DNA of 64,000 bases from assembly GCF_963921235.1 (NCBI RefSeq), contig NC_086097.1:125242001-125306000 (forward strand), read 5' to 3'. Below, in pieces: positions 2,154 to 59,342 of the stretch. A program made the position numbers and the translations under genes. Under the pieces are notes generated by a model. It was not told where the DNA came from, ran no database searches, and saw only the letters and a list, made by a program, of their open reading frames with translations. This DNA is from Mobula hypostoma. Its lineage: Eukaryota. Each line of letters opens with the position of its first letter. Position 1 is the first letter of the stretch.

Positions 2154-3534
2154 TACTTCATGAAATTCCTTGCAGCAGCAATACAGTGCAATATATGGAA
2201 TATATTATAAATTATAAGAAATATATATATATAGTACAGTTTGAGAATCCCTTATCTGAAATGCTTAAAACTAGAAGTATTTCAGATTTCAGGTTTTTCC
2301 AGATTTTGGAATATATAACGAGATAGGTTGGGATCACCAACATTTCCGACCATGAATTTATGTACCAACTTTAAGCAGTCTTTGTCTTGCACTTGTTCAT
2401 CACATATACAGTATGTACTGATGCAGCCATTCAGCATGTTAGATTTTCACCAGCGACCATCTTGGCAACCTCATCAATGAAATGCTCTGCTGCTTCATGA
2501 TCAGCAGGTGCTTTATCACCACAAGTCTTTAAAAATTGAATGCTCTGCCTTTTTAAAAATTTCTGCAACCAGCTTGCTGAATATTCACAATTACCTTCAA
2601 TTTTCAGTTCATCGTAATATACCTTTGCTTGTTTTGTGATTGGCATACCTTTAAGTGGCACATGTTCACCCTGCTGCAGCTGAATCCACTCTTTCAATAC
2701 ACAATGGAGATCTTCATTTCTCACTTCATCTCAGGGTACGTCCACACTACGCCAGATAATTTTGAAAACGAAGCCTTTTCTCTTCGTTTTGATCTTCGGC
2801 GTTTTCAACCCCCGAAAACGGAGATTTTCAGAAACAGTCTCCAGAGTGAATAAATCTGAAAATGCCAAATATCCGTTGTAGTGTGTACGGGGTAAACGGA
2901 GAGATTTAAAAATGCTGTCATGACAACACCACAACAATAATGCTTTTTCTGCTTCTGCTTGGTACTGCGCAAGCACTGCCGTACGGCTGTTATAACGCGC
3001 AGTCGGTGTGAACGGCGTGAGAGTTAAATTGTGAAGTGAGCTTTTTTGACTATTTAAAACCACTGTCATGGCGTGCTGGAACAGACAGTGGCAGCGCCAC
3101 ATTTCATTGTTTTCTTCTTATTATTCTTCTTCTTATTATTACTACTTTATTGTCGCCAAAGCATTGATACTAGAGTGTGCAATTATGACAGCAATATTTG
3201 ATTCTGCGCTTCGCAGAACCTAACAATTTCAGAACAGACAGCAATGAGACTGAAGCCAGAAGAGTTAGAAGTGTACTCACCAAATACTTTGACCCATAGC
3301 TTACTGAATAAATAAGTATACTCACTTTGCCCTGTTTTCTGTCCTTGCTTGTCTGAAGATGGTTTACCTATTTATGCAAGTACTTCTCTGACAATAGATG
3401 TGTAACAGCCTAATGTAACATTGTATGGAAATACAAAAACACGAGGAATTCTGCAGATGCTGGAAATTCAAGCAACACACATCAAAGTTGCTGGTGAACG
3501 CAGCAGGCCAGGCAGCATCTCTAGGAAGAGGTAC

Positions 3535-3570
3535 AGTCGACGTTTCGGGCCGAGACCCTTCGTCAGGACT
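3535..3570 (-). ncRNA. Minimal type I hammerhead ribozyme motif (PLE-associated), intact
   Basis: Reverse complement reads AGUC CUGACGA A GGGU CUCG GCCC GAAA CGUC GACU: both core boxes, stem II, palindromic ACGU stem III, GUC cleavage triplet and helix I AGUC/GACU. Confidence 0.8.
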
Positions 3571-4633
3571 AACTGAAGGGAGATTTGAAAGTGGGAGGGG
3601 GAGGGGGAGATCCAAAATGATAGGAGAAGACAGGAGGGGGAGGGATGAAGCCAAGAGCTGGACAGGTGATTGGCAAAAGGGATATGAGAGGATCATGGGA
3701 CAGGAGGCCCAGGGAGAAGGAAAAAGGGGGAGGGGGGAAAATAACCCAGAGGATGGGCAAGGGGTATAGTCAGAGGGACAGAGGGAGAAAAAGGAGAGAG
3801 GGAGAGAAACAATGTGTGTATATAGATAAATAACAGATGGGGTACGAGGGGGGAGGTGGGGCATTGTGGAAGTTAGAGAAGTCAATGTTCATGCCATCAG
3901 GTTGGAGGCTACCCAGACGGAATATAAGGTGTTGTTCCTCCAAACTGAGTGTGGCTACACTTACACTTCCTCCCTTACCACCATTCAGGGCCCCAGACAG
4001 TCCTTCCAGGTGAGGTGACACTTCACCTGTGAGTCGGCTGGGGTGATATACTGCGTCCGGTGCTCCCGATGTGGCCTTCTATATATTGGTGAGACCCGAC
4101 GCAGACTGGGAGATTGTTTTGCTGAACATCTACACTCTGTCTGCCAGAGAAAGCAGGATCTCCCAGTGGCCACTCATTTTAATTCCACGTCCCATTCCCA
4201 TTCTGATATGTCTATCCATGGCCTCCTCTACTGTAAAGATGAAGCCACACTTGGGTTGGAGGAACAACACCTGATATTCCGTCTGGGTAGCCTCCAACCT
4301 GATGGCATGAACATCGACTTCCCTAACTTCCGCCTATGCCCCACCGCCCCCTCGTAACCCATCCGTTATATATTTATATACACACATTCTTTCTCTCTCT
4401 CTCCTTTTTCTCCCTCTGTCCCTCAGACTATACTCCTTGCCCATCCTCTGGGTTTCCCGCGCCCCCCCCCTTCCTTCTCCCTGGACCTCCTGTCCCATGA
4501 TCCTCTCATTTCCCTTTTGCCAATCACCTGTCCAGCTCTTGGCTCCATCCCTCCTCCTCCTGTCTTCTCCTATCATTTTGGATCTCCCCCTCCCCTCCCA
4601 CTTTCAAATCTCTTACTAACTCTTCGTTCAGTT

Positions 4634-4669
4634 AGTCCTGACGAAGGGTCTCGGCCTGAAATGTCGACT
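4634..4669 (+). ncRNA. Minimal hammerhead ribozyme motif (PLE-associated)
   Basis: agtc ctgacga a gggtctcggcct gaaa tgtc gact. Core intact, with a C>T change in stem III. Confidence 0.7.
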
Positions 4670-5724
4670 GTACCTCTTCCTAGAGATGCCGCCTGGCCTG
4701 CTGTGTTCACCAGCAACTTTGTTGGAAATACAAGATAACACTGATGCAGACATATTTTATACATTTAACAAGGTGCTTTATTAATGCAACAGAGTTAGTC
4801 AGTTTTTCAATGTTCGTCGTCAGCCGGGTCATACTGTCCGTGAACTCCCTGTCTGTTGCGTCCATACGCTCCAGTATTTGTCTTTTTTTCAGTTTTAAGT
4901 CCTCCTGCGTGAGAGCCAAGAGCAATTCCTTTTAAGTTTTTCTGCTCTGTAACTGGACAAACGCGCACCAAGTATATTGTTTCCTCTTTGCTTGTTTTCT
5001 GTGTGTCCTGCGCGTGCCCAGTAGGAGGAGATTCGCCCAAATATCCACCTAATGTGGACAGAGATATTTTGAAAAATGCTTAGTGTGGACGCCTGTCGTT
5101 TTTACTCAAAACCGGCGTTTTCAAAATTATCCGGCGTAGTGTGGACGTAGCCTCAGAACTAACAGTCTGTGATGCGCAGAGGCCTGTACACTGCCTGGGA
5201 ATCTTCCCAGTGCCTTTTGGAGTTTTCCATTTGTGACATCACCTCAGCGCTCAAACAAAATGTCAGATTTTGGAGGTTTGGATAAGGGGTACTCAACCAG
5301 TACATAAAAATTAAACGTAGTATTGTCGTGATCACTCAAGTCGAGTATGATGTTCTCCTAAGGGGTTGTCTGTTGGTGGGTCTTTTGGTGGCTGTAGAGG
5401 CCAATCTGGGATCCACATGTTCCGTTGTAGTGTAGACAAGGATAAATGGTGGCTATGGTTAGTGGTGGGCCTTATGGTTGTTCAGTCTCTCCTTTTGCAG
5501 CTGCCACTTGCTCTTTGCGAAGCAGCATGGGTCGCTCTCATGTGGCTCAGTTTCATCTTGAACAGATTTCCTCCAGGTCTATCTGTTAACCAGGATCCAC
5601 TATCAGTGGGGCAAGAGGAGAGCAAAATATCGAGGTGGCGTTCATGGATTCATGGACTGTCTTATGCTTTTGTCAGAAGGCTAGCTTCTGAATCAATTGA
5701 ACAGTATATGGGATATAACTGTTT

Positions 5725-7214: not shown

Positions 7215-9387
7215 GTCTTAATTCAGCCCATTTTGTCCATGCCAACCTGGTCAACTGCCTAGTCCCATTTATCTGCACCCAAACCATAACCCTCCATGAC
7301 TCTCTTAAAATGTGTACCAATCCAAACTTCTCTTCAGTGTTGCAATCGAACCCACGTGCATCACTTCCACTGGTAACTTGTTCCATTCTCTCACCACCTC
7401 TGAGTCAAAAAGTTCCCACGCAGGTTTCCCTAAAACGTTTCATCTTTCACCCTTAACCCAAGACCTCTGGTTCCAGTCTCATCCAAACTCAGTTGAAAGA
7501 GTCTGCTTGTATTTTCTCCTAAACATACCTGTCACAATTTTGCATACCTTTATCAAATCTCCCTTCATTCTTCTACGGTCTAGAGATTAAAGCCCTAACC
7601 TATTCAACCTTTTTGTATAACTCAAGTCCTGAAGTCCTAGCAACATCCTTCTAAGTTTTCTGTGCACTCTTTCAATCTTACTTATATCTTTCCTGTGGGT
7701 AGCTGATCAAAACTGCACACAGTTCTCCAAATTAGGCCTTACCAGCGTCTTGTACAACTTCAACATAATAAACTAACTCCTGTACTCAGTATTTGATTTA
7801 TGAAAGTACTGTGCCAATGTGCCAAAAGCTTTCTTTACTACCTGTGATGCCACATTCAAGGAATTATGGTTCTGCATTCCCTGATCTCTCTATTCTAACG
7901 CACTCACCGTGCAAGTACTACCCAGGTTTGTCTTCCCAAAGTGCAACACCTCACACTTGTCTGCATTAAATTCCATCTACCATTTTTAGCCTATTTTTCG
8001 AACTGTTCTGGATCCCTCTGCAAGCATTGATAGCCTTCCTCACTATCCATTATGCCCCCAATCTTGGTGTCTTCTGCAAATTTGCTGATCCCATTTACTA
8101 CATTATCATCCAGATTGTTGACATAGATGGCAAACAACAATGGACCCAGCACTGGTCCCTGCAGCACATGACTAGTCACAGGCTCCAGTCAGAGAGGCAC
8201 CATCTACTACCATTGACTGGCTTCCTCCAAGAAGCCAACGTCCAATCCAATTCACTATCTTATCTTGAATGCCAAGTGTCTGAACTTCCTTGACAAACCT
8301 CCCTTGCAGGACCTTGTCAAAGACCTTACTAAAGTCCATGTAGACAACATGCTCTGCCTTGCTTTCATCAACTTTCTTGGTAACCTCCTTGTAAAACTCT
8401 ATAAGATTGGTTAGATACAACCTACCATGCGCAAACCCATATTGACTATCCCTAATCAGTTCCTGTCTATCCAAATACTTATGTATCTGGCCCCTTAGAA
8501 TACCTCCCAATAACTTTTCCATGACTGATGTCAGGCTCACTAGCCTATAAATTCCAAGCTTATTCTTAGAGCGTTTTTTAAACAAAGGAACACTAATCCT
8601 CCTCTAACCCTCTGGTACCTCACCTGCAGCAAAGGACGTTTTAAGTACCTCTGCCAGGGCCCCTGCAAATTCTGCACTAGCCTCCTACAAGGTCAGATGG
8701 GACACCTTGTCAGGCTGTGGGGAGTTATCTGCCTTAAGTTACCTTAAGAGAGCAAACACCTCTTCCTCTGTACCCTGAATAGGGTCCGTGACCTCACTTC
8801 TACTCTGTGTCTGTCTCCCAGTAAGTACAAACACAAAAAATCCATTTAAGATCTTCCCCATCTCTTTCAGCTCTGTGCATAGATGACCAGTTTGATCTTC
8901 TAAGGGACCAATTTTGTCCATCGCTATCCTTTTGCTCTTAACATATCAGTAGAACTCCTTAGGATTCTCCTCACCTTGCTTGCTACAGCAACTTCTATCA
9001 TTCTTTTAGCTCTCCTGATTTCCTTCTAAGGTGGTCTCTTGAATTATTTAAAAACATTCCTCAAGTATCTCATTTGCTCCTTCCTTCCTGTACCTGCTAT
9101 GCACCTCTTTCTTCTTAACCAGGGCCTCAATATCTCTTGAAAACCAAGGGGCACTTGACCTGTTATCCTTGCCTTTTATTCTGATAGGAACATACAAGCT
9201 CTGTACTGTCAAAATTTCACTTCTGAATGCCACTCACTTACCAAGTTCACCTTTGCCAGAAAACAATCTGTCCCAATCCACACTTGCCTGATCCTTCCTG
9301 ACACCATCAAAATGGACCTTTCTCCAATTTAGAATCTCAACATGAGGACCAGGCCTATCCTTTGCCATAATTATCTTGAAACTCATG
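7215..9387 (-). mobile_element. CR1-like LINE fragment (RT region and 3' end), decayed
   Basis: Minus-strand ORF remnants YRLVSLTSV, SQYGF, VVYMDFSKVFDKV, QGPVLGPLLF, SKFAEDTKIGG; multiple stops and frameshifts. Confidence 0.88.
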
Positions 9388-13439: not shown

Positions 13440-14030
13440 TAATAACATAGAACACTACGGCACAGTATAGGCCCTTCAGCCCACAATGTGGTACTGACCT
13501 TTTAACCTACTCTAAGATCAATCTAACCCTTCCCTCCTATATAGCTCTCCTTTTTCCTTTCATCTTTGTGCCTATCTAAGAGTTTCTTAAAAGTCTCTGT
13601 CTCTACCACTACCTCTGGCAGAGCATTGTACGCACACACCACTTTTTATGTAAAAATAAAAGAGCTTACTTCTGACACAGCTCCTGTATTTCCCTCCAAT
13701 CACCTTAAAATTATGCAACACACACACAAAATGCTGGTGGAACGTAGCAGGCCAGGCAGCATCTATAAGAAGAGGTACAGTTGATGTTTCAGGCCGAGAC
13801 CCTTCATCAGGACTAACTGAAAGAAGAGATAGTAAGAGATTTGAAAGTGGGAGGGGGAGGGGGAGATCCGAAATGATGGGAAAAGACAGGAGGGGGAGGG
13901 ATATGCCCTGAAGAAGTCTCTGCCTATTCGGGTGATCTATGCCTCTTATCATCTTGTACACCTCTATCAAGTCACGTCTCATCCTCCTCCTCCTCTTCAA
14001 AGAGCAAAGCACTGGCTCGCTCACCCTATC
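13440..14030 (-). mobile_element. CR1-like 3' fragment interrupted by a PLE module (~13717-13900; hammerhead 13779-13814, - strand)
   Basis: Remnant RRRMRRDLIEVYKMIRGID. The insert reads agtcctgatgaagggtctcggcctgaaacatcaact on the minus strand. Confidence 0.75.
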
Positions 14031-15249: not shown

Positions 15250-17115
15250 TCTGCCTTCCAAATGTCCACTGCCTTACAATTAAGATGGACGAGTTGTCAT
15301 CAGGACTAACAAGGATTATGCCCATATTTCTGCCTTTTGTTTTGTTGAAACGTGGCTTAACTCAGACATACCAACTAGTTTGAGTGGATTGTAAAAGAGC
15401 ACTATGGGGCAAGTCATGTTTATAAATAACAGATGGCGCAGGGACATGTCCATCATTCTTTTCCTCTGCTAACCTAGAGGCTCATTTCATTCGCTGTAAA
15501 CCACTCTACCTACCCAGGGAATTTCACTCTGTTCTCCTGGCTGTTACGAACACTCAATCGTGCAAACACTCAATGTACACAACAGCTGATGGCTGCTAAC
15601 ATTTATAATTTTGAACATACATTTCCCAATACTGTCATTTTCATTATGGAGGATTTCAACCATTGTAACAGGAAGCATGATCTGCCCAAACACCACCGGA
15701 TGATTCGCTGCCTCACACATGAGGACAGAACTTTGGAACCATTTCTACACCGCCATTCAAAGGGCATTCTGCCATTTTCCCCGGGGCACCCCTTGGCATC
15801 CCTGACCATGCCATGACCATACTTGTTCCCTGCCATAAATGAAAATTGGAGCAGTCTAAACCACCCAGGACCATCAGACGTTATTGGGACTCCTGAGGCT
15901 GTAGGAAGGCTGAGAGACTGCTGAGGCACCACAGATTGGAAGGTTGGTGTAGCAGTATAGATGAATATGCTGACACTGTAACATCCTACGTATCCTTCGG
16001 TGAAGATGTGTGTCTTCCTAAAAGGATCATTGTGAGGTATAACAACGACAAGCCATGGTTCACCCAGGAGTTGGGGACTCTCAGGTCTGCAAAGGATTAT
16101 GCCTACAGATCTGGAAACAGAGAGGAGTATAGCTCTGCAAGACACCAGTTTAATAAAGCTCTGAAAGTAGCGAAAAACACTTACAAGGATGGGCTAGAGA
16201 GAGACTTCAGACTGCCCAGCTATTGTTGGAGTTCCCTGCAGAATATTATTAACTTTGAACTGAAGTGCTCTCAAGTCTCCCCTCCCCTGTCTTGGCCAAT
16301 CAACTCAATTAATTTTATTGCTGGTTTGATAAGGACAATCAATATCCATCTCACTTCCTCTGACCCTGATATGCTGAACCCACCCCTTTCCTTTCACAAT
16401 CACTGCAATGTTACCATCCCCCCTTCATCCCAGCCCGATTTACCTTCTTCAGCCTCCTCCTCCACTTGACTCCTCCCTCCATCCCACCCTAAACTTTCTA
16501 CGAAGCAAGAAGACATTTGTAAACGATATGGAAAACAGAACATTAGGAAAGCTGCTGGTGTCTCACCCGGTTCACTAAGGTTCTGTGTGGATCAGCTAGC
16601 ACCTGCCTTCACTCAGATATTTAGCTCATCCTTGTAATTATGTGGGGCTCCGGACTGCTTAAAATTTGCTACAATCGTTCCAGTTCCCTAGAAGACAAGA
16701 TCACTGGAGTGACTATAGCCCAGTCAGTCTGACTTCAGTAGTTATGAAAACTCTGAACGTGTGATGTTGGCCTACCTTAACTCCATACTCATCCTCTTCT
16801 TGACCCACTACAGTTTGCTTCAAAAGCAAATCACTCACTTGAGGATGCAGTTAAATTGCACCTTCCTTGCATTCTTCAACATTTGGACTCCTCCAACACC
16901 TATGTGAGGAACTTGTTTGTGGATTTTAGTTTTGCCTTCAACACTCTTGTTCTGGAGCTGCTCCACAGCAAGATAACCCAGAGCTATACCCTATTTGACA
17001 GTGGAATACAAACTTACTGACCAGAAGAAGACAGGTTGGGCTCCTACTTGTCTGATCCAATGTCTATAAGCACAGGCACACCCCAGGGTTATGATCTTTC
17101 ACCCCTCCTGTTTTC
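15250..17115 (+). mobile_element. Rex1/Babar-like LINE fragment (APE and RT), decayed
   Basis: Remnants KMDEL, FVETWLN, YLPREF, DFNH, NNDKPWFT, DPLQFA, LFVDFSFAFNT, TGTPQG; frameshifted. Confidence 0.8.
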
Positions 17116-17360: not shown

Positions 17361-18834
17361 AAATTAGATCATCGAAAGGCAGCACGCGATAAAAGGCAGC
17401 GCACGTCCCGAGCAGCCGCTCTCCCCCGGATTCGGAACGGCATTGCTTAAACACATGCCTGTGAGCAGCCGTTTGCAAGATGAGTTCTGAGGTACTGTAT
17501 CAGAAAAGCCTAACAGAGCTCGTAAGGGTGTTACACTCAGCGTAAAACTAGACATAATTAAGCATTTCGATCGTGGTGAATGAAGCAAGGACAAAGTGAG
17601 TTTGGCTTGTGGAAGCTGACGAAGATGATGTTGAAGAGGTTTTGGCATCCCATGACCAAGAACTGATAGATGAAGAGCTGATGCAATTTGAAGAGGAAAG
17701 GATAACAATCGAAACCGAATGCAGTAGCGAACGGACCAAAAGTGACTGCATGAGATTTTTGCTGCAATGATAAAGTACGACTTTAATTTTGAAAGGGTAC
17801 GTAGGTTTAGGGGATATTTGCAGGATGGTTTGAGTCCTTACAAACAACTGTATGATAGAAAAATGCGCGAGGCTCAGCAGTCAAGCAGGCCTTCCACATC
17901 AGCCACAGCAGACGATGAACCTCGATCTTTGACATCGAGGCGGGCAGTTATAGGAGAAGATGAGCTGCCTGCCCTGATCAACGATGAGAAGACACCCCCG
18001 TATCCCACCACCCCAACACCCGGGTCCCGGACAGGTACTGTACCGATTCGCAGAGAATGCAGCAGTAGCCGTGAGGCACACAGCACATCTTTAAGAAAAA
18101 AGCCGAAATAAACAAGCTAATTAATTAGGTGCCGCCGACACGTAATTGTCGGCCCATATCAGTGCCGATTTCCGATTGCATCGCCTCTGATCTGGGCCGA
18201 CAATTATGTGTCAGTGGCACCTAATTAATTAGCATTTTTATTTTGGCTTTTTTTTTAAAGATGTGCTGTGTGCCTCCCGGCTACTGCTGCATTCTTCGCG
18301 GCAATGTACCGGGTCAGCGGCCCGGAGGGTGGGGGCCACTGCACCACCCAGCCTGCGACGACTCAGTCTAACACACCATCATCAGTTTGCTCGGCAAGCT
18401 GTCTTCCTGATTCCGGTAAGTGATACACACTGTACATACATTATTTCTACTTTATATAGGCTGTGTATTTTTACATGTTATTTGGTAGATTTGGCAGCCT
18501 CATAGCTTAAAGGTTACTGGAGAGAGTGTTTCTGCCAACAGCGCTGGCGTGAGATTTTCACTACGGAGATCTGTGCAGGCAATCGTTGTAGAGAAGTATT
18601 TCTACTTTATATAGGCTGTGTATTTATCCTATCATTCCTGCTTTTACTATATGTTACTGTTATTTTAGGTTTTATATGTTATTTGTCATGATTTGGTAGG
18701 TTATTTTTGGGTCTGCGAAAGCTCACAAAATTTTCCCATATAAATAAATGGTAATTGCTTCTTCACTTTACGGCATTTCGGCGTACGAACCGTTTCATAG
18801 GAACGCTCTACCTTCAGATGGCGGGGGAAATCTG
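17361..18834 (+). mobile_element. Tigger/pogo-like transposon 3' part with long internal palindrome
   Basis: Acidic transposase C-terminal remnant (EDDVEEVLASHDQELIDEELMQFEEE; YKQLYDRK). Right end ...ggcgggggaaatctg|TA. The left TIR was not found. Confidence 0.6.
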
Positions 18835-19688
18835 TAATGCAAAAAGAGAGCAAAATAGTAACGTGGTATTTGTGGGTTCGTTGGACATTCAGAAATTTGA
18901 TGGCAGAAGGGAAAAATCTGCTCCTAAAATGTTGAGTGAGTGTCTTCAGGCTTCTATACCTCCACCCTGGTGGAATTAATGAGAAAATGGCATATTCTGG
19001 GTGGTGGGGGGTCCTTAATATGAGTGCTTCATCGTCTGAAGATGTCCTTGCTGGTGAGGAGATTTGTGCGCACAATGGAGCAGGTTGAGTTTACAACCCT
19101 CAGCAGCTTTTTTTCTGATCCTCTGCAGTGGCCCCTCTGTATCAGATATCTGTGTTTGGACTGGAAATATGAAAACTTTTTCCTCTGGTAGGAGATATTT
19201 TTTTCCCCTCCCTGCCTCCACCTACCCCTAAAGCCACTGACTCATTATGGGCTATAATATGTCATCATCTCTGGAAGCCAAGATGGTGCTATGTGATGGG
19301 AGGCACAGCATAGCTCACTCCCGTTTACGTCACGTCCTGCACTCATTCAAGTTCTGCAGCAAGAGCACCAGATAGTGTTTGAACTTGGTGCTGTGGCTGA
19401 TTTAGTTATCTTCTTTTGGCTCAGAATCTGAGCTAATTGCTCACTCTTTTTATAAGTGTAAGGGCCCGTCAGGCCCTCGAGCCCATTTAGTCAGGTTGTG
19501 ATCTCTCATCGTGATCTGATTTCCCAGTTTAAAAAAAAGTGGTAACTATTCTCTGAGTAATTGGTGTAAACGTGCATTTTGAAAGCTAGTACAGCTCAGC
19601 TGGGAGTTTGAACATCAAGAAGAGTAGGCTTGTGACCGGAAAGAGCGATTCACTGCTTAGGCAATCAGTAAAAAAAAATTACAATATA

Positions 19689-20200
19689 CACTCAGTGGCC
19701 ACTTTATTAGGTAGAGGAGGTTCCTAATAAATGGGCACTTAATGTATTTATATATGTTCGTAATGCTGTGGCTCGTCCTCTTCAAGGTTCAACATGTTGC
19801 CCTTTCAGAGCTGTTGTAACACGTAGTTATTTGAGTTACTGTCACTTTCCTGTCAGCTTGAACCAGTCTGGCCATTCTCCTCTGACCTCTCATTAAAAAG
19901 ACATTTTCGCCCACAGAACTGCAGTTCATTAGACGTTTTTTGCACCATGTAAACTCTACAGACTATTAAGAGATCAGCAGTTTCTGCGATACTGAAACAC
20001 CCCGTCTGGCACCAACAATCATTCCACAGTCAAAATCATATAGATCTCATTTCTTCCCCATTCTGATGTTTGGTCTGAATAACAACTGAACCTCTTGACC
20101 ACGACTGCATGCTTTTCTGCATTGAGTTGCTGCCACATGATTGGCTGATTAGATGTTTGCATTAACGAGCAGGTGTGCCTAATAAAGTGGCTGCTGAATG
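19689..20200 (-). mobile_element. Non-autonomous Tc1-like element
   Basis: TA-flanked TIRs cactcagtggccactttattagg and cctaataaagtggctgctgaatg; same family as 1627-2153. Confidence 0.8.
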
Positions 20201-20743
20201 TAATGAAGTGTTTCTCTACAGTGATGCTGCACATGTCCTGATGTTTGTGGTATTGGGGGGGGAGGGATGAATTGTGTTAGAAAGGAGGGGAGGGTGGATT
20301 GGGAGTGAGCTATCACAGTTGAAGATATTTGCCAAATGGGTTTGAGTTTCCCTTGAAAGCATGTTCACAAAGTCAGGGATCACTGCTGGACAAAAGCATT
20401 TTGTTTCAAAGCAGCCTACCTCGAGATAACTAATCTCATCATTCTTACTTTTGCTGCAAAGAGCATTGTGTGTTTCTGACTTCCCGAGCGTAACTAACGC
20501 TTTGTACTTCCTAACTCTGCTTGCTTTAGTCTGATTTGACCGGACTGCAAGAAAGGATGAAAACTGTGTTTAGCTAATTGTGGAGCAGGAGTGAGGAGTG
20601 TCACAAGAATGAGATTGATTTTAAATAAATTGATCAGTTTTCTTGTTGGGCAGTTTGAAACTGTTTTAATTCGATTAATTTTATTGAAATGTCTTTTTTT
20701 TCCACCTACATCATGCAACTTCCCGTCTGATACTGGAATTTTT

Positions 20744-20840
20744 AGTCCTGACGAAGGGTCTCGGCCTGAAACGTCGACTGCGCCTCTTCCTATAGATGCT
20801 GCTTGGCCTGCTGCGTTCACCAGCAACTTTGATGTGTGTA
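20744..20840 (+). mobile_element. 97-bp PLE-derived mini insertion starting with an intact hammerhead motif (20744-20779)
   Basis: agtcctgacgaagggtctcggcctgaaacgtcgact. 12-bp TSD actggaattttt at 20732-20743 and 20841-20852. Confidence 0.85.
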
Positions 20841-21151
20841 ACTGGAATTTTTGCCTGTTCTTAGAGTTCCTTCCTGATAGGTTGATGTCAGCCAAACCCG
20901 AATCCAACCTCAATGTTTGAATGTACAGTGTGGTTAGATACTCCACAGTAAGAGTAAGAGCTTGCATTATCTCACTGTGGCCAGATATACCTTTTGTTCA
21001 AACCAGATGACCTCTGTTAACTTGTCTCAGACCAGTGGCCAACACTTGGACTTTGAACTGTATGCCATTTGGTGCCCTGCTCATTCTCTATTTGAGGCAA
21101 AGATTTAAAAGATTCAAAGATTAGCTTTATTTGCCCCATGTAGAGCAAAAC

Positions 21152-25109: not shown

Positions 25110-26255
25110 AATTGAATTGAATTGACTTTATTACTTACATCCTTCACATACATGAGGAGTAAAAATCTTCACGTTACGTCTCCGTCTAAATGTGCAATGT
25201 GCAATTTATAGTAATTTATAATAAATAGTATGTACAACAGGAAAGTCAATATAGCATAGAAATACAACTGTATCAGCATGAATTAATCAGTCTGGTGGCC
25301 TGGTGGAAGAAGCTGTCCTGGAGCCTGTTGGTCCTGGCTTTTATGCTGTGGTACTGTTTCCTGGATGGTAGCAGCTGGAACAGTTTCTGGTTGGGGTGAT
25401 TCAGGTCCCCAGTGATCCTTCGGGCCCTTTTTACACACCTGTCTTTGTAAGTGTCCTGAATAGTGGGAAGTTCACATCTACAGATGTGCTGGGCTATCCA
25501 CACCACTCTCTGCAGAGTCCTGCGATTGAGGGAGGTACAGTTCCCATATCAGGCAATCAGGCAGTGATACAGCCAGTCAGGATGCTCTCAATTGTGCCCC
25601 TGTAGAAAATTCTTAGGATATTGGGGCCCATACCAAACTTCTTCAACCGTCTGAAGTGAAAGAGGTGCTGTTGTGTTTTTGTCACCACACAGCTGGTTTG
25701 TACAGACCATGTAAGATCCTCGGTGATGTGGATGCTGAGGAACTTAAAGCTGTTCACCCTCTCAACCCCAGATCCATTGATGTCAATAGGGGCTAGCCCT
25801 TCTCCATTACTCCTGTAGTCCACAACCAGCTCCTTTGATTTTGCAACATTGAGGGAGAGGTTGTTTTCTTGACACCACTGTGTCAGGGTGATAGAAACGT
25901 AGAAACATAGAAAACCTACAGCACAATACAAGCCCTTCGGCCCACAAAGCTGTGCCAAACATGTCCTTACCTTAGAACTACCTAGGCTTACCCATAGCTC
26001 TCTATTTTTCTATGCTCCATGTACCTATCCAGGAGTCTCTTAAAAGACCCTATCGTTTCTGCCTCCACCGCCGCCGCCAGCAGCCCATTCCACGCACTCA
26101 CCACTCTCTGCGTAAAAACAACTTACCCCTGACCTCTTCTCTGTAGGCAGCCTCATTATTATTTGAGATTAGGCCAATCAATGTAGTATCGTCAGCAAAT
26201 TTAATTAGCAGATTGGAGTTGTGGGTGATGACACAGTCACAGGTATGCAGAGAGT
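25110..26255 (-). mobile_element. Rex1/Babar-like LINE 3' fragment with nested CR1 tail (~25891-26146)
   Basis: ORF 25557-25958(-) contains WCQENNLSLNVAKSKELVVDYR...VERVNSFKFL...FYRGTIESILTGCIT; (aattg)n tail at 25110. Confidence 0.85.
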
Positions 26256-34513: not shown

Positions 34514-35114
34514 TCTGTCAGGGGTTGGCCTCTGTGAAGGGTCCTCAAGTGTGAACATCACAGGGGCCGTTATGGAACTAGATGTCGTTTCCCCTGTTCA
34601 CAACACTCCCCCTACATGGGCTCTGCTTTGATTTGTGAATATCAGGCACATGAAATATTGAAGAGTTCTTAGTGTTGAAAAACAACATCCCAAGTTAATG
34701 GCCTGGAAAAAGGAAGAGAGAGATAATTTATAAACTCAATAGATTCTGTAGGTGCTGGAAATCCAGAACTGCACACAAAATGCTAGAGGAACTCAGCAGT
34801 CTAGGCACCAACTACGGACTGGAATAAATAGTTGAAATTTTGAGTCAAGATCCTTCATTGGGACTGGGGAGGAAGGGGGCAGAAGCTAGAATAAGAATGT
34901 GGGAGAAGGGAAGGAGTACAAGCTGACAGGTAATATGTGAAATATGTGAGAGGGAGTGGGGGTGGATAAAGCGAGAAATTGGGAAGTGATAAGTGGAAAA
35001 GGCTGAATTGAGTTGAGGGCTGTCACCTTTGAACTATCACCTGTGGAACCAGAGGATCTAATACACTTGACCACTGTTATGCCACCATTAAGAATCCTTA
35101 CCATGCCATCTGAC

Positions 35115-36530
35115 GCCCACACTTGGAAAGTCAGATCTTCTGGTTATATATCTGCTCACAGAAGATAGGCAGAGACAAAAGACCACAGCACCAGTGGTGA
35201 GGACCAAGACAGTATGGTCAATGGAGGCAGAGGAGTCCTTACAAATCTGCTTTGAGTCAGTGAACTGGACAATGTTCAGGGATTCATCTTTGAGTCTGAA
35301 TGAATACATCACAGTTATAACTGACTTCATCAAGACCCATGTGGATAAGTGTGTGCCTTCGAGAGCATACCAGACATACCCAAACCAAAAGCCATGGATG
35401 AACCAGGAGATTCGTAATCTGCTGAAGGCCAGGCCTGTAGCACTCAAGACTGGTGACCCAGAACTTTACAAAACGTCCAGGTACGGCTTACGGAAGGCTA
35501 TTTTTAAGAGCAAAAAAGACAATTCTGATTGAAGGTTAGAGACAGAATTGGATGCAAACCAGCTCTGGCAGGATTTGCAGGCCATTACTTCCTACAAGAC
35601 AAAACCTAACGTCATGGATGGCAGTGATGCTTCACTTCCAGAGGAGCACAACAGCTTTTATGCTCACTTTGAAAGGGAGAATAAAGGTACACCTATGCAA
35701 ATCCCTGCAGCATCTGGTGACACTCTGCTTCCTGTCTCGGAGGCCGACATCAGAATATCTTTCAAGAGGGTGAATGCTTACAAGGTGTCGGGCCCTGATG
35801 GTGTACCTAGTAGAGCACTGAAAACCCGTGCCAATCAACTGGTGGGAGTGTTCAAGGACATCTTCAGTCTCTAACTGCTGCAATCAGAGTTTCCCGCCTG
35901 CTTGAGAAGGGAAACAATCATACCAGTGCCCAAGAAGAGCAGGGTAAGCAGCCTCAGCCACTATCACCCAGTGGCACTCGCGTCTTCTGTGAAGGAGTGC
36001 TTTGAGAGATTGGTCACGGCCAGAGTCATCTCCTGCCTAAGCAAGGACCAGGACCCACGGCAATGTGCCTACTGCCACAACAGGTCTACAGTGGATGCAA
36101 TCTCACTGGCTCTCACTCAGCCTTGAATCGCCTGGACAGTAGTAATACTTAGATCAGGCTGCTGTTTTCTGACCACAGCTCAGCGTTCAACACAGTCATA
36201 CTCTCAGTTCTAATCAAAAAGCTCCAAAACCTGGATCTCTACCTCTCTCAGCAACTGGATCCTTGACTTCCTCAGCGGGAGACCACAGTCAGTACTGATT
36301 GGAAATAGCATCTCCTCCTCGCTGGCAATCAACACGGGCAGACCCCAAAGGATGTGTGCTTAGCCCACTGCTCTACTCTCTCTACATCCACAGCTGTGTG
36401 GCTAGGCACAACTCAAATACCATCTATAAATTTGCCAGTGTCGCAACTATTGTTGGCAGAATTTCAGATGGTGATGGTGATGGTGATGAGATATCGGCTG
36501 ATCGAGTGGTGTTGCAACAACAATCATGAG
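35115..36530 (+). mobile_element. Rex1/Babar-like LINE fragment (RT region), decayed
   Basis: Remnants [53 protein letters not shown]. Confidence 0.88.
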
Positions 36531-37825: not shown

Positions 37826-38045
37826 ACAACACACACGCACGCAATATGCTGGTGGAACTCTCAGTGGGTCAGGTAGCATGTATAGAAATGAATAAACAGT
37901 TGATGTTTTGGGTCGAGAAACTTCATGAGCCCAACACATCGACTGTTTATTCCTGTCCATAGATGCTGCCTGACTTGCTGAGTTCCTCCAGCATTTTGTG
38001 TGTGATGCCTCTGGACTTGCAGCATCTGCAGAATCTCTTGTATTT
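37826..38045. mobile_element. PLE-derived fold-back insert (decayed)
   Basis: Antisense module then sense module, with the junction near 37925 inside decayed hammerhead sequence. Confidence 0.7.
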
Positions 38046-38849: not shown

Positions 38850-39498
38850 CACTAAGTGGCCACTTTATTAGGTACCTCCTGTAGCCCATCCACTTCAAGG
38901 TTCAACATGTTGTGCATGCAGCCATGCTCTTTTGCACACCATTGTTGTATCACATGATTATTTGAGTTACTGTCACCTTCCTATCAGCTTGAACCAGTCT
39001 GGCCATTCTCCTCTGATCTCTCTCAATTACAAGGCACTTTTTCCCTCAGAACTGCCACTCACTGGATGTTTTTCATTTTCCACACCATTCTCTGTAAACT
39101 CTAGAGACTACTCAGATTTCAAATCTACTCCTCAAATTTTTTTCTCCAGTCCTGCCGAAGGGTTTCAGCCCAAGACGTCGACTGTACTTTTTTCTATAGA
39201 TGCTGCCTGGCCTGCTGAGTTCCTCCAGCATTTTGTGTGTGGAACTCTAGAGAATGTTGTGCATGAAAATCCCAGATCAACAGTTTCTGAGATCCTCAAA
39301 CCACCCTGTCTGGCACCAACAATTATTCCACGGTCAAAGTCACTGAGATCACATTTCTTCCTCATTCTGACATTTGGTCTGAACAGCAGCTGAACTTCTT
39401 GACCATGTCTGAATGTTTTTATGCATGGAGTGGCTGATTAGATTATTTACGTTAAGGAGTAGATGTACAGGTGTACCTAATAAAGTGGCCACTGAGTG
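38850..39498 (-). mobile_element. Non-autonomous Tc1-like element with nested PLE mini insert (39108-39242)
   Basis: TIRs cactaagtggccactttattagg and cctaataaagtggccactgagtg|TA. ORF 39165-39365(-) MRKKCDLSDFDRGIIVGARQGGLRISET is a Tc1 N-terminus. Insert TSD aactctagaga at 39097-39107 and 39243-39253. Confidence 0.85.
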
Positions 39499-41839
39499 TA
39501 TATGACAATAATAAGTTCAAGATATGATTGCAGAGGGGAAGAAGCTGTCCCTGTATCACTGAGTGTGGGAGTTCAACCTCCTTCCTGATTTTAGTAACAA
39601 AAGAAGGACATGTTCGAGGTAACGAAGGTTCTTTGTTATCTAGACATTACCTCCTGAAGATGACCTCGATGGTGGGGAGCATTGACTGAGGCTATAGCCC
39701 TCTACAGCCTCTTGTGATCCTCTGCATTGAAGGCTCTGTCCCAGGCTGTTCTGCAACCAGTCAGAATGCTCTGCGCCGTACATCTATAGAAATTTACAAG
39801 AACCTTTGGTGATAAACCAAATCTCCTCAAACTCCTAAGGAAGTAGTGCTGCCTTCATAATTTTGCATGATCCGAGACTCAAGTTCCTTTATAGTGCGTA
39901 CATCGAAGCGTGCAGTGAAAAGCGTCATTTGCGTTAACAACCAACACACCTGAGAGTGGACTGGGAGCAGCCACAGTGTCACCACACATTCCAGCACCAG
40001 CATAGCACACTCACCACACTTGATAGAACGACACAGAACACAACCAGCAACAAAGGCGCAACAGCAAAACAAGCCCAATTCCTCCCTTGCACGTACACAG
40101 TCCTTTAACCCCAAACACGAGGAAATTTGCAAATGTTGGAAATTCAAGCAATTCCTTTAGATGCTGCCTGGCCTGCTGCGTTCACCTTTAACCCTAAGGC
40201 GGGCCTCCAGTGTCCAGTGGAGTCAGGCCTGCAGACCATCATTGTGTTGGAAGCAAGAATATCACCACTTACCCGTAATGTCTTGAAAACATCTGAAATC
40301 CATTTTGAAGTCTACGATTCCAGAGAACTGGTCTCAAACTGTCATTTCTTCCCTCAAGTTTAGAAGAATGGTGGGGGGGGGGCGTGCGGGGAGGGACTCA
40401 TTAAAACCTATGGAACAGGCCGAGACAGAGAGTGGATGATGGAGGGGAGGCTTCCAAATTAAGATTCAGGTTGTATATTGTTATTCCTCAGTACACAAGT
40501 GTAAAGGAGAGCAAACTGATTGTTATGCCAGATGTGATGCAGCATAAACAAAAACACAGCAATCATAAAGAACGCAAGTTTAAAGATAAAGAAATACAAT
40601 AAATGTAAAAACAATCCTATAAGATATAATGTATATTTCCACGCTGACAGGAAATGATAAAGTGACAAAGTGACTCTTGTTTGGCAAGCGGAACTCTTCT
40701 GGGCAGCAGCAGTGACCGTGACTGTGTCACTGTAGGTATAAGGTGTGGAGTGTAACTGTGAAGTGGCAGTGCATAGGGGATGAAGGGTGCTGGGGGCAGT
40801 TGAGCACCAGAGGGCACAGCCTTCGAATAAGAGGACGTCCCTTTAGAACAGAGGTGAGGAGGGATACATGCAGCCAGGGGGTAGTGAATCTGTGAATTCA
40901 TTACCACAGACAACTGTAGAGGCCAAGTCACTGGGTATATTTAAAGCAGAGATTGATAGGTTCTTGATTAGTTAGGGCAGCAAATATAACGGGGAGAAGG
41001 CTGGGGAATGGAGTTGAAAGAAATAATAAATCAGCATTGATTAAATGGCAGAGCAGACTTAATTGGCTGAATGGCCTAGTTATGCTCCCATGTCTTGTCT
41101 TATGTCTTATTTCCACTGTTCATAATGTATCTTAACTCATCCAATACACAGTTTCATACATAGTAGCTCTCTCTTCCCTATATTTACAGTGTTACTTATG
41201 TAAATTTGACTTTGAATAGTGGAAATATTTTACCATTTTGATTTCCCCTGTTAGGCTGAATTGAGTATTGAATCATAACTTCTGCACTCTGCCCAACATA
41301 ATGCTTCAATAACCATATAAACAAAACCACGGCCATTATTGTACCAGCCCCATTTTTGTACCACGTCATTTTTGCGACCTCTCAGACCTGAAGCACGGTT
41401 TGTACCTTACTGTAGAATGGTGGTCAGTAAGAATCTTATTTGAATTTTCACAACTGTGCAATTTCTTTTGGGGCAACTTCTATTCTGAAGGTGACGGCAC
41501 ACATTAAGCTTGCCATTCATAGAAATAATTGACGTTCATTTGGTAGTGACTTGGTTGCTTTTCTGCTCTGTAATATAAAACTTGCAAAACTGAGCAAAAA
41601 CTATCTGCAGAAGGAATTGGCTACCTAGTAAAATAAATACATTGCATTTACACTGGAGACTTTCTACTGATAGAGACAGTCTCCAATTAAGTAATGAGGA
41701 AAAACTGCTGTGGTGTTTAAAGGCATGTATTCAGTCTCAATTTATTTCAGGTGTCGTTTAACTGGATGCTATTTTCTCTTAAAACTGTTTCGTGCATGTT
41801 TTTAATAGAACTCCCTTCCATTAATGTGCAAAGTGCCTA

Positions 41840-52410: not shown

Positions 52411-52891
52411 GTTGCAGGATATTTGAGGCCATTGAAACTGTATCTTCAAAGAGAAACCGCAGGGTTGTGAAGACTGCAGAAATCATAATACCCCCTATTA
52501 CATTTAAACAAAATTGGAAGAATAAATTTAGAGTAAGGGATAAGAGATTTGAGGAGGCTTTTCTGGAGACTTTTCTGTGTCTGGACATTGGTATTTCCGT
52601 ACCAGGCCATGATACATCAGTTAGGATATTCTGCACTGTGTGTCTGTAGAAGTCTATCAGAGTTTTAGTCTCTCAGAAAGTAGAGGTGCTGTTCTGCCTT
52701 CTTTGTGATGACACTTATGTGCTGGTCCAAGGACAGATCATCTGATATAAAGGCAGGAAGCTTAAAGTTACTCACCCTCTCTGCCTCATATGGCGGACTG
52801 GCTCACGGACCTCATCCCTATCACTGTGCACAACTTCAGAAAAGAGCTTTCTTACCATGGCCTATAAGCATCTTCCAAGGAATAGAGTTAT

Positions 52892-52987
52892 GTCCTGATG
52901 AAGGGTCTCGGCCTGAAACGTCGACTGTGCTTCTTCCTATGGATGCTGCCTGGCCTGCTGCGTTCCACCAGCATTTTGTGTGTGTTG
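52892..52987 (+). mobile_element. 96-bp PLE-derived mini insertion starting with an intact hammerhead motif (52892-52925)
   Basis: gtcctgatgaagggtctcggcctgaaacgtcgac. 15-bp TSD aaggaatagagttat at 52877-52891 and 52988-53002. Confidence 0.88.
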
Positions 52988-53104
52988 AAGGAATAGAGTT
53001 ATTCTGTTGCACCTTCTCCTTTAGCCTCTAACCCCTCAGATTACATGCCTCTTTGTCCTGAACAGATGAGGGATGAGAGTCGTTGATCATAACATGTCTG
53101 AAAT

Positions 53105-55150
53105 AGAAGACCATAATAAGACATAGGAGCAGAATTAGGCCATTCAGCCCATTGAGTCTGCTTTGCCATTCCATCAGGGCTGATCCATTCTCTTTCTCAA
53201 ACCCATTCTCCTGCCTTCTCCCCCATAACCTTTGACTCCCTGACTAAACAAGAACCTATCAACCTCTGCTTTAAATATACTCAATGACTTGGCCTTCGCA
53301 TCTGTCTGGCAATGAATTCCACAGATTTAGCTCCCCCTGGCTAAAGAAATTCCTCCTAATCTGTGTTCTAAATGGATGTCCCTCTGGCCCTAGACTCATT
53401 CACTAGAGGAAACATCATCTTCATATCCACTCCATCTCGGCCTTTCAATATTTGATAGGTTTCAATAAGATTTCCCCCCCCCCACCCCCATTCTTCTCGA
53501 GTACAGGCCCAAAGCCATCAAACATGCCTCACACATTAACCCTTTCATTCCCAGGATCATTCTCTTGTGTTTTATCTGGACCCTCTCTAATGCCGGCACA
53601 TCTTTTCTTAGATCAGGTGCCCAAAACTGCTCACAATATTCCAGACCAATGCCTTATAAAGCCTCAGTATTACATCCTTGCTTTTATATTCTGATCTTTA
53701 GAAATGAATGCTAACATTGTATTTGCCTTCCTTACCACCAAATGAGTGAAACTGTAAGTTAATCTTTAGGGAAAACTGCATAAATACTTCCAAGTCCCTG
53801 TATACCTCTGATTTTTTAAATTCTCTCCCTGTTTAGAAAACCTCATTCCTTCTACCAAATGCATGACTATACACTTCGTTACACTATATTTCATCTGCTT
53901 CTTATTTGTCCATTCTCCTAATCTATCAGAGTTCTCTGTAGACTCCCTGCTTCCCCAACACTATCTGCCCCTCCATCTACCTTCATATCATCTGCAAACA
54001 TGGCCACAAAGCCATCAATTCTGTCATCCAAATCATTGATATCTAATGTGAAAAGAAGCTGTCCCAATACTAACCCCTGTAGAATACCATTACTTACCAG
54101 CAGTCAACCAGAAAAGCCCCCCTTTATTCCTATTCTGTGCCTCCTGCCAGTCAGCCAATTTTCTATCCATGGTAGTATCTTTCCTTTAAAGCAGCCTTAC
54201 GTGCAGCAAGGGCTTTCTGAAACAACATTCACTGACTATCCTTTGTCTATCCTGCCTGTTATTTCCTCAGAGAGTTCCAACAGATCCTTAAGGTGCAAGA
54301 ATTCCCCTTAAGGAAACCATGCTGGCTTTGGCCTATTTAATCATGCATCTCCAAGTACTCTGAAATCTCATCATTAATAATGGACTCCGACATCATCCCA
54401 ACCACTGAGGTCAGGCTAACTGACCTATAATTTCCTTTCTTCTGCTTCCCTCCCTTCTTAAAGAGTGGAGTGATATTTGCAATTTTCCAGTCCTCCGGAA
54501 CCATTCCAGACTCTAGTGATTCTTGAAAGATCATTACTAACGTTTCCACAATTACTTCAGCAACCCCTTTCAGAACTCTGGGGTGTAGTCCATCTCGTCC
54601 AGGTGGCTTGTCTATCTTCAGACCTTCCAGCTTCCCAAGCACTTTGTTCTTAGTAATAGCAACTACACTCACTTCTACCCCCTGACACACTTGAACCTCT
54701 GGCATACTGCTAGTGTCCTCCACAGTGAAGACTGATGCAAAATATTTATTAAGTTTGTCCGCTGTTTCTTTGTCTCACTTTACTACCTCTCCAGCATCAT
54801 TTTCCAACAGTCTGATATCCACTCTAGCCTCTCTTTATGTATCTGAAAAAACTGTTGGTATCCACTTTTATATAATGGGCTAGCTTACCTTCGTATTTCA
54901 TCTTTTCTGTCAGAAAGCTTTTTTTTAAGTTGCCTTCTGTTAGTTGTTAAAAGTGCCCCAATCCTCTAACTTCCCACCAATTTTTGCTATATTATGTACC
55001 TTCTCTTTTGCTTTTATGCTGCCTTGGACTTTCCTTGTCACCCACAGTGGCCTTACCCTCCCTTTAGAATACTTCTTCATCTGTGGGATGTATCTATCCT
55101 GTGCCTTCCGAATTGGCCCCAGAAACTCCAACCACTGCTGTTCTGCCGTC
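53105..55150 (-). mobile_element. CR1-like LINE fragment (RT region to 3' end)
   Basis: ORF 54337-54723(-) contains KPPGRDGLHPRVLK...VPEDWKIANITPLFKKG...NYRSVSLTSVVG; tail ataagacataggagc. Confidence 0.88.
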
Positions 55151-56030: not shown

Positions 56031-56255
56031 AAACAACACACAAAAAATGCTGGAGGAACTCAGCAGGCCAGGCAGCATCTATGGAGAAAAGTATTGTCAA
56101 CATTTCAGCCTGAAACATTGACTGTACTTTTTTCCATAGATGCTGCCTGGCCTGCTGAGTTCCTCCAGCATTTTGTGTGTGTTGCTGTTTTCCATAGATG
56201 CTGCCTGGCTGACTGTACTCTTTTCCAGCATCTGCAGATTTTCTCATTTGTGATG
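56031..56255. mobile_element. PLE-derived near-perfect fold-back insert
   Basis: Arms ~56033-56108 and ~56110-56184 are reverse complements centred on tttcag-c-ctgaaa; a partial third module follows. Confidence 0.85.
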
Positions 56256-59172: not shown

Positions 59173-59261
59173 AGGAACATTTATCACCCCTGTAACCATC
59201 AGATTCCTGAACCAGCGTGGATAAATTCACTCACCTCAACACAACTGATTTCACAACCTAT

Positions 59262-59342
59262 GGCCCGAAACGTCGACTGTATCTCTTCCTAGAGATGCTG
59301 CCTGGCCTGCTGCGTTCCACCAGCAATTTTTATGTGTGTTGC
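59262..59342 (+). mobile_element. 81-bp PLE-derived mini insertion (3' half of hammerhead only)
   Basis: ggcccgaaacgtcgactgt...; 11-bp TSD tcacaacctat at 59251-59261 and 59343-59353. Confidence 0.85.

What the first reader, a model, noticed from the sequence alone, without database searches (positions are those of the whole stretch)
20744..20840. 'Ribozyme-only' ~96-bp insertions with their own TSDs and near-identical boundaries
Seen: two independent insertions, 20744-20840 (12-bp TSD) and 52892-52987 (15-bp TSD). Both begin within one base of the 5' strand of hammerhead helix I and end in the same tgtgtgt tract. Related TSD-flanked inserts are 59262-59342 (81 bp, starts in stem II), 39108-39242 (135 bp) and 40112-40184 (73 bp, two inverted pieces). 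Inference: either a minimal non-autonomous PLE-mobilised unit made of little more than the ribozyme plus a 3' hairpin (tgctg-N7/8-cagca), or reverse transcription that stalls at the folded ribozyme. The inserts span the cleavage site, so their templates were uncleaved there.
Basis: partly seen in the sequence, partly recalled or inferred. Interest (0 to 1): 0.7.

Follow-up and report, generated by a model that had tools for sequence, protein, structure and literature searches.

The report
Penelope stubs start at hammerhead edge
These ~96-base insertions are short end-copies of a very abundant Penelope-type jumping gene, likely not a mobile mini-ribozyme of their own, and across the genome their front ends pile up sharply at the first bases of the ribozyme motif, likely because the copying enzyme runs off the start of a short RNA there, which would be a testable clue to how these elements move.

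Summary
All five insertions and their TSDs (10-15 bp) are as described. They are end-copies of a ~3.5-kb Neptune-type Penelope-like element (PLE; 45,139 exact core matches).

The 3' boundary is the upstream of two clustered end sites (~+95, ~+133), the known PLE 'tail'. There is no peak at the cleavage site or the helices' 3' edges, so stalling at the folded ribozyme is unsupported. Short copies share haplotypes with long ones, so a separate SINE-like unit is unsupported. The peak persists in copies lacking core base A6.

Also: 77 of 80 head-to-head inserts pair one short-site arm with one long-site arm, and 15 copies show one-off end-to-end re-copying of an RNA fragment. Best reading: run-off at a frequent RNA 5' end; its cause is untested and no cap-G excess was found. 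This scan noted the peak before, here and in other genomes; I did not find it in print.

The parts
20732..20743 (+). left target-site duplication, 12 bp
20744..20840 (+). 97-bp PLE stub, element positions -1..~+95, young subfamily
20744..20780 (+). minimal type I hammerhead motif: helix I 5' strand 20744-20747, core CTGACGA 20748-20754, stem II 20756-20767, GAAA 20768-20771, palindromic ACGT in place of helix III, predicted cut 20775|20776, helix I 3' strand 20776-20780
   Evidence: sequence read against the min-HHR description in PMC4209133; activity not tested; no Rfam hit
20841..20852 (+). right target-site duplication
52877..52891 (+). left TSD, 15 bp
52892..52987 (+). 96-bp PLE stub, positions 0..~+96, different subfamily variants
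52988..53002 (+). right TSD
59262..59342 (+). 81-bp stub starting at +18 (off the peak), 11-bp TSD at 59251-59261 and 59343-59353
39108..39242 (+). 135-bp stub of the older CTGCCGA (A6 to C) subfamily, starts ~40 bp upstream of the core; 11-bp TSD at 39097-39107 and 39243-39253
40112..40184 (.). head-to-head stub without ribozyme: inverted long-site arm (+133 to +95) plus forward arm +43..+76; 10-bp TSD at 40102-40111 and 40185-40194
4019..4715 (+). longer copy of the parent element: GIY-YIG endonuclease remnant (4019-4357), pyrimidine-rich pLTR, then the same hammerhead unit from 4635
   Evidence: GIY-YIG motif read by eye, no Pfam hit
3473..3569 (-). hammerhead unit of a longer copy with pLTR upstream and tail downstream, oriented head-to-head with the 4019-4715 copy
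   Evidence: TSD of the pair not tested
13720..13813 (-). hammerhead unit of a longer copy with pLTR upstream, short-site 3' end

Best explanation
The inserts are end-copies of a Neptune-type Penelope-like retrotransposon whose 3' ends fall at one of two clustered sites and whose 5' ends peak at the front of the hammerhead motif, likely because the element's reverse transcriptase starts inside the RNA at those sites and runs off a frequent RNA 5' end lying at about -2..-1. SHOWN: family membership; two 3' end clusters (~+95, ~+133); the -1/0 peak; pairing of one short with one long arm in head-to-head inserts; one-off permuted repeats. INFERRED: (1) the protein binds RNA spanning the pLTR-ORF junction and makes staggered nicks ~14 bp apart; (2) each nick primes one cDNA, one at each start site, probably on the same RNA; (3) both arms kept gives a head-to-head insert, while one arm lost or aborted gives a simple TSD-flanked stub such as these; (4) the cDNA ends where the template ends, with a few bases lost or microhomology used on joining; (5) the RNA end at -2..-1 most likely arises by 5' trimming of longer transcripts down to the folded or protein-covered ribozyme domain, with a transcription start at the YYAGTCC initiator-like motif a close second. 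The stubs lack the downstream ORF-start sequence and are likely dead on arrival.
For: Parent: two copies with a ~3.5-kb hammerhead-to-hammerhead period (L251, L252), RT hit, CX4CxxC linker in 13 of 14 distinct natural translations. Peak: 21 of 267 sampled young copies at -1/0 vs 1.8 expected, p=1e-15; 10 of 30 simple TSD-flanked copies at -2..0. Genome-wide junction estimates: +16 ~380, +1 ~1,360, 0 ~3,050, -1 ~3,380, -2 ~1,120, -7 ~490 (counts; junction share from 30 loci each; intervals). The excess shoulder lies downstream (+1..+12: 39 in 12 nt), as expected for end trimming. RNA-end evidence: 15 of 19 ORF-start loci show a junction from an upstream point X back to an ORF point Y (+207..+1557); all 15 junctions differ; 3 of 15 have X at -1/-2; in 4 of 15 the last pass ends again at X+-1; both arms share one junction in 2 loci; it is crossed twice identically in 3. 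If one arm ends at -2..+1, its partner passes -12 in 3 of 39 pairs vs 18 of 74 other arms, p=0.04. 77 of 80 TSD-flanked inverted inserts pair short with long (51 of 54 without tail-selected loci). Peak kept without core A6: 11 of 40 at -3..+1 by eye. In vitro precedent for two internal start sites, both-strand extension and uncleaved template in PMC11167929.
Against: 156 of 267 sampled copies read past -5, so this is not an obligatory end; templates must be mixed. Of the ORF-start copies that retain the ribozyme front, most continue into the pLTR; 1 starts at -2 and 2 at +4/+5. Arm ends are uncorrelated overall (Spearman -0.04, 51 pairs). No RNA end was observed directly. No cap-G excess: G precedes -1 in 6 of 21 simple inserts and 4 of 8 where the base lies outside the TSD. 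52 of 96 class -1 loci are inverted, where the GTC/GAC and TCAG/CTGA self-complementarity can steer junctions. The in vitro precedent is a Poseidon element, not Neptune. Identical repeated junctions fit a circular template or a pre-existing tandem as well. All inspected loci come from contig C1.
Confidence: 0.6

Rival explanations
1. The RNA continues upstream, but RT is blocked or released just after copying helix I: by proteins on the 3'-splice-site-like AG and pyrimidine tract, or by the new cDNA folding once both helix strands are copied.
For: Upstream reads branch-point-like TACT(A/C)AC, pyrimidine tract, then AG at -1/0; all subfamilies keep a pyrimidine tract plus AG there. In D. virilis the intron ends at the 5' end of helix I (PMC4209133). 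Most copies read through, as a leaky barrier would allow. A hairpin with its loop at -3..+2 is predicted in the young subfamily.
Against: An equal AG four bases upstream gets few ends (-6..-4: 7 vs 2.7 expected, against 21 at -1/0). No branch-point peak (5 vs 4.6). It does not explain last passes ending exactly at heterogeneous X points. No spliced copy was seen among inspected junction loci.
Confidence: 0.2
2. The peak is a joining artefact: cDNAs end at random and are trimmed back to microhomology at the self-complementary AGTC/GTCCTGAC stretch.
For: Many junctions show 1-5 nt microhomology; inverted junctions often join through GTC or TCAG.
Against: The peak is strongest in simple TSD-flanked copies joined to unrelated targets (10 of 30), several with no microhomology; the same AGT four bases upstream is little used.
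Confidence: 0.08
3. A self-propagating ~96-nt non-autonomous ribozyme element (SINE- or retrozyme-like) mobilised by the PLE.
For: About 6,400 exact-core copies start at -1/0; mild haplotype skew toward the youngest variants at positions 37 and 48 (p=0.02, 0.01, uncorrected). Short tandem arrays with a ribozyme per unit exist (L285, L253).
Against: No private variants; shared haplotypes with long copies; two different 3' ends; the two window inserts belong to different subfamilies; the peak recurs in a separate subfamily. By analogy with PMC11167929 the stub lacks downstream RNA needed for priming.
Confidence: 0.06
4. RT stalls on the folded hammerhead itself, or stops at the self-cleavage site.
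For: The peak does lie at the ribozyme; a modest shoulder covers +1..+12.
Against: No excess at the helices' 3' edges or at +31; the inserts fold no better than shuffles (z +1.3, +0.8); the peak survives loss of core A6.
Confidence: 0.04

Closest known systems
EN+ Penelope-like elements, Neptune type: 5'-truncated copies, pLTR, inverted 5' partner, 30-40 bp tail often on one end only (PMC8557442, passages; PMC3846280, passages)
   Same: Domain order RT, CX2-5CxxC linker, GIY-YIG; partial tandems; head-to-head partners; optional tail; TSDs; heavy 5' truncation.
   Different: The passages I saw treat truncation as variable and give no preferred 5' end; they do not count the short-with-long pairing (77 of 80 here) or describe end-to-end re-copied fragments. 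PMC3846280 explains head-to-head structures by self-priming on an antisense template; the paired start sites here fit priming from both nicks better.
Anolis Poseidon PAc in vitro (PMC11167929; parts 1-2 of 4 read, the whole main text)
   Same: Two internal RT start sites bounding the tail, both target strands extended, uncleaved RNA as main template, product length set by the template's 5' end.
   Different: Poseidon clade; reports no difference in start site between strands and no pairing within one event; no genomic 5'-end histogram.
Minimal hammerheads of metazoan PLEs (PMC4209133; parts 1-2 of 4 read)
   Same: Type I core, short helix I, extra base before stem II, palindrome in place of helix III, mostly solo copies ascribed to truncated PLEs.
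   Different: Proposes self-cleavage and circularisation; here no ends collect at the cut site, and a subfamily lacking core A6 spread with the same boundary.
Non-LTR retrozymes (bioRxiv 10.64898/2026.07.22.740005; parts 1 and 3 of 5 read)
   Same: Short PLE-pLTR-derived units with a type I hammerhead; rare 2-3-unit arrays here (L285, L253) look like them at birth.
   Different: Retrozymes are defined as tandem arrays forming families; the inserts in question are solo, and each array junction seen here is unique.
L1 twin priming (recalled) and R2 template jumping (PMC8857657, abstract and outline only)
   Same: Two nicks priming two cDNAs; RT continuing from one template end onto another.
   Different: In L1 (recalled) the two arms copy non-overlapping RNA parts; here they overlap and start at two fixed sites.

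Membership tests
EN+ PLE, Neptune type (parent element) | Reverse transcriptase ORF | tested here: met
   Pfam RVT_1 E=1.7e-6, 28.4 bits, just under the 29.6 cutoff, in L251; DKG and YIDD motifs; the two other pieces scanned had no hit
EN+ PLE, Neptune type (parent element) | C-terminal GIY-YIG endonuclease | tested here: inconclusive
   GVIYC...LYIGET motif seen downstream of RT; Pfam gave no hit on the fragments
EN+ PLE, Neptune type (parent element) | CX2-5CxxC linker before the endonuclease (shared with Nematis) | tested here: met
   13 of 14 distinct natural translations; definition from PMC8557442 passages
EN+ PLE, Neptune type (parent element) | pLTR from partial tandem, hammerhead in pLTR | tested here: met
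   L251 and L252: pLTR-ORF-pLTR, period ~3.46-3.52 kb
EN+ PLE, Neptune type (parent element) | Optional 30-40 bp tail and inverted 5' partner | tested here: met
   3' ends cluster at ~+95 and ~+133; 80 TSD-flanked inverted inserts
EN+ PLE, Neptune type (parent element) | Placement in the Neptune group by RT phylogeny | not tested
   no tree built; Neptune versus Nematis rests on the linker and host group only
Minimal type I hammerhead (min-HHR) | CUGAnGA and GAAA core, helices I and II, palindrome instead of helix III | tested here: met
   sequence; Rfam no hit; 39108 has CTGCCGA and fails the core
Minimal type I hammerhead (min-HHR) | Self-cleavage (as dimer or protein-assisted) | not testable with these tools
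   no genomic end excess at the cut site
Non-LTR retrozyme | Tandem array with a hammerhead in each unit | tested here: not met
   the five window inserts are solo between TSDs; only rare loci elsewhere are arrays
Non-autonomous SINE-like family | Own lineage with diagnostic variants | tested here: not met
   no private variant in 75 peak copies versus 60 long copies; shared top haplotypes
Non-autonomous SINE-like family | Own fixed ends | tested here: not met
   both 3' sites used (14 and 10); 5' ends spread over -2..+1 within a continuum
Non-autonomous SINE-like family | Own promoter and transcript | not testable with these tools
   no RNA holder listed; contigs only

The most novel reading that the evidence does not exclude
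The PLE hammerhead fold works not as a cutter but as the 5' boundary of a protected RNA template. A dimeric PLE protein copies one short RNA fragment twice, from two fixed start sites and two nicks, and can jump from the fragment's 5' end to its own 3' end (or copy it as a circle). That single cycle would account for the ribozyme-only stubs, one-sided tails, head-to-head pLTRs, partial tandems and newborn retrozyme-like arrays.
Probability: 0.3. Interest if true: 0.75.

Novelty: new variant of a known kind. Interest (0 to 1): 0.5.

Why it matters
How PLEs integrate, how they regenerate pLTRs and what their hammerheads do are open questions, and cleavage was dispensable in the one in vitro system. 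This genome holds tens of thousands of recent insertions that record the reaction. They give three sharp predictions: an RNA 5' end at -2..0, use of both start sites in one event, and re-copying of one RNA molecule. The inserts themselves are ordinary dead transposon stubs, not a new mobile ribozyme.

Tried and rejected
DNA search of the own genome with the insert returned nothing because common words are skipped. Rfam: no hammerhead hit. Cap-derived G: inconclusive to negative. Spliced copies or a recurring exon 1 upstream of AG: none in the junction loci inspected. Branch-point stall, suggested by three early loci: no excess. First extension script stopped at low-complexity indels and was replaced; 27 of 47 calls at -354..-57 still lack a TSD and may be alignment stops. 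Sequencing runs: no RNA holder listed. Four contig sets of two other organisms were laid: no GT..AG joint among the 15 shown (97 not shown); listed loose left ends include -1 in all four and 0 in two, but -1 is confounded by older subfamilies and the runs may be DNA, so I give it little weight. Overall arm-end correlation: absent. Orthologous empty sites: no relatives of this genome are held. Literature: 8 searches found no report of a 5'-end peak at the PLE hammerhead or of paired start sites; subscription journals are mostly missing, and no supplements were read (those of PMC11167929 map genomic ends and may bear on this).

Full report
Observation. All five inserts have the stated coordinates and exact abutting TSDs of 12, 15, 11, 11 and 10 bp. 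I number the element from 0 = G of GTCCTGA (window 20745). The two main inserts start at -1 (ambiguous to -3 by microhomology) and 0, end at ~+95, are 89.6% identical, and span the predicted cut at +30|+31. The window holds 27 hits to this unit. The hammerhead is read by eye against the minimal motif of PMC4209133; Rfam has no hit.

Parent element. In the window the same unit follows a GIY-YIG remnant and a pyrimidine-rich pLTR. The genome (3.48 Gb) has 45,139 exact matches to a 34-base core and 76,845 to a 35-base 3' anchor. Searching past the tail (1,314 matches) gave two full-length copies with a ~3.5-kb period, an RT hit just under the Pfam cutoff and a CX4CxxC linker in 13 of 14 translations. 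This fits the Neptune type as defined in PMC8557442; I built no tree.

3' ends. They form two clusters, ~+94-100 and ~+131-137. That is the PLE tail, shown in vitro to lie between two RT start sites (PMC11167929). The shared tgtgtgt end is therefore a family property. Simple TSD-flanked copies use both sites equally (19 and 19).

5' ends, sample. I collected 388 young copies and kept 267 not selected on their 5' side: the census of anchor matches at the start of C1, neighbours in 10-kb stretches, and tail-selected copies. One 10-kb stretch was placed to include a 5'-selected site as well. Positions -1 and 0 hold 21 copies against 1.8 expected from a background of 0.91 per base. The cut site, the 3' edges of helix I and stem II, and the branch-point-like A show no excess. 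A shoulder covers +1..+12 (39 copies). 156 of 267 read past -5. Among 30 simple TSD-flanked copies, 10 start at -2..0.

5' ends, genome-wide. I counted copies matching from a given base onward but differing at the base before, then checked 30 loci per class to separate junctions from substitutions: +16, 876 with 13 of 30 junctions; +1, 1,851 with 22 of 30; 0, 3,664 with 25 of 30; -1, 3,616 with 28 of 30; -2, 1,162 with 29 of 30; -7, 614 with 24 of 30. Estimated junctions are about 380, 1,360, 3,050, 3,380, 1,120 and 490. The patterns differ in 3' extent, so denominators differ somewhat, but the 6-9-fold peak is far larger than that. Roughly 14% of exact-core copies start at -1/0.

Not a separate unit. 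75 peak-class and 60 long copies share their commonest haplotypes with no private variant; two positions are mildly skewed toward younger variants. Copies with core A6 changed to C (2,006 matches) show the same boundary: 11 of 40 at -3..+1, 4 at -9..-11, 25 longer, scored by eye; 2 of the 11 are point mutants of the young subfamily. That A6 matters for catalysis is recalled, not looked up.

Both nicks, both start sites. Of 80 de-duplicated TSD-flanked head-to-head inserts, 77 have one short-site and one long-site arm (51 of 54 without tail-selected loci); the modal TSD is 14 bp. Several simple inserts carry 6-19 extra bases that match the start of the missing arm (L008, L123, L161, L197). Window 40112-40184 is such a pair with two short arms. 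I infer that simple stubs are events where one arm failed. A one-sided tail is described in PMC8557442 and PMC3846280; the near-strict pairing was not in the passages I saw.

Why -1/0. Of 19 loci carrying the ORF start, 2 are full length and 15 run from a start site up to a point X and then continue from a point Y inside the ORF. Every junction is different. X is -1 or -2 in 3 of 15 and -25 to -233 in the rest. The last pass ends again at X+-1 in 4 loci (L257, L295, L270, L285). Both arms share the junction in L256 and L262; it is crossed twice identically in L285, L253 and L293. The simplest reading is that X and Y are the ends of an RNA fragment, copied end to end or as a circle, so 5' breakpoints are often RNA ends and -1 is the commonest. 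Partner arms of peak-ending arms rarely pass -12 (3 of 39 vs 18 of 74, p=0.04), but arm ends are otherwise uncorrelated. YYAGTCC fits the initiator consensus (recalled), yet helix I pairing constrains the same bases, and no cap-G excess appeared (6 of 21; 4 of 8). With heterogeneous fragment ends and no G, trimming to a protected domain is slightly ahead of a start site. In D. virilis the start site lies upstream in the pLTR, before a 75-bp intron (PMC2377424, parts 2-3 of 4 read). A leaky barrier at the splice-site-like AG remains the main rival.

Comparison and novelty. It works like, and on the features tested belongs to, canonical EN+ PLE insertion. It is not a retrozyme array or a SINE-like lineage. 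Eight library searches did not find the 5'-end peak, the paired sites or the re-copied fragments in print; PMC6155905 (passages) only restates minimal hammerheads in PLEs. I reached this reading before consulting the scan's notes. They report the same peak in this and other genomes; these are unchecked AI notes and not independent support. One reports a cap-like G in another genome, which I did not reproduce here.

Limits. No RNA data; all inspected loci are from one contig; 30 loci per class; folds are predictions; no empty sites; supplements not read.

Verdict. Real feature, known kind of element, with an apparently undescribed and directly testable mechanistic footprint. Interest 0.5.

Noticed in passing
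L285 (G000:C1:133861001-133871000) and L253 (G000:C1:46041001-46051000): TSD-flanked arrays of three hammerhead units with 285-bp and ~440-bp periods and unique junctions; they look like retrozyme-type arrays at birth.
   Followed up: partly
window 39149-39160; 2,006 genome matches: An older subfamily reads CTGCYGA instead of CTGAnGA in the ribozyme core and still spread widely.
   Followed up: partly
L252:2521-2700 and all young copies: A short reading frame through the ribozyme stops at +99; the long ORF follows in the same frame with a first ATG near +171. The core ATG of older copies is ACG in the young subfamily.
   Followed up: no
element +64..+111 (L244, L248): A predicted long stem-loop holds the short start site in its 3' arm, recalling the stem-loop start site of the anole element.
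   Followed up: partly
L005 and L021: Two copies share ~750 further bases upstream of element position -795 that differ from the other long copies; possibly a rearranged sub-lineage.
   Followed up: no
window 56034-56184 and 37835-38007: Older head-to-head pairs of the same unit; the first scores weakly as a hairpin RNA family in Rfam.
   Followed up: no
window 18114-18238 and 19684-19749: Palindromes with sub-threshold microRNA-model hits, probably MITE-like inverted repeats; the 19684 arm motif recurs at 38850-38880 and 39475-39500.
   Followed up: no
window 8172-8603, 15478-16469, 25557-26009, 35092-35874, 54337-54774: Decayed reading frames that resemble LINE reverse transcriptases (resemblance recalled, not searched).
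   Followed up: no
L146 and L147: The same ribozyme-only insert with identical TSD occurs twice 4 kb apart, so a local duplication followed the insertion.
   Followed up: no
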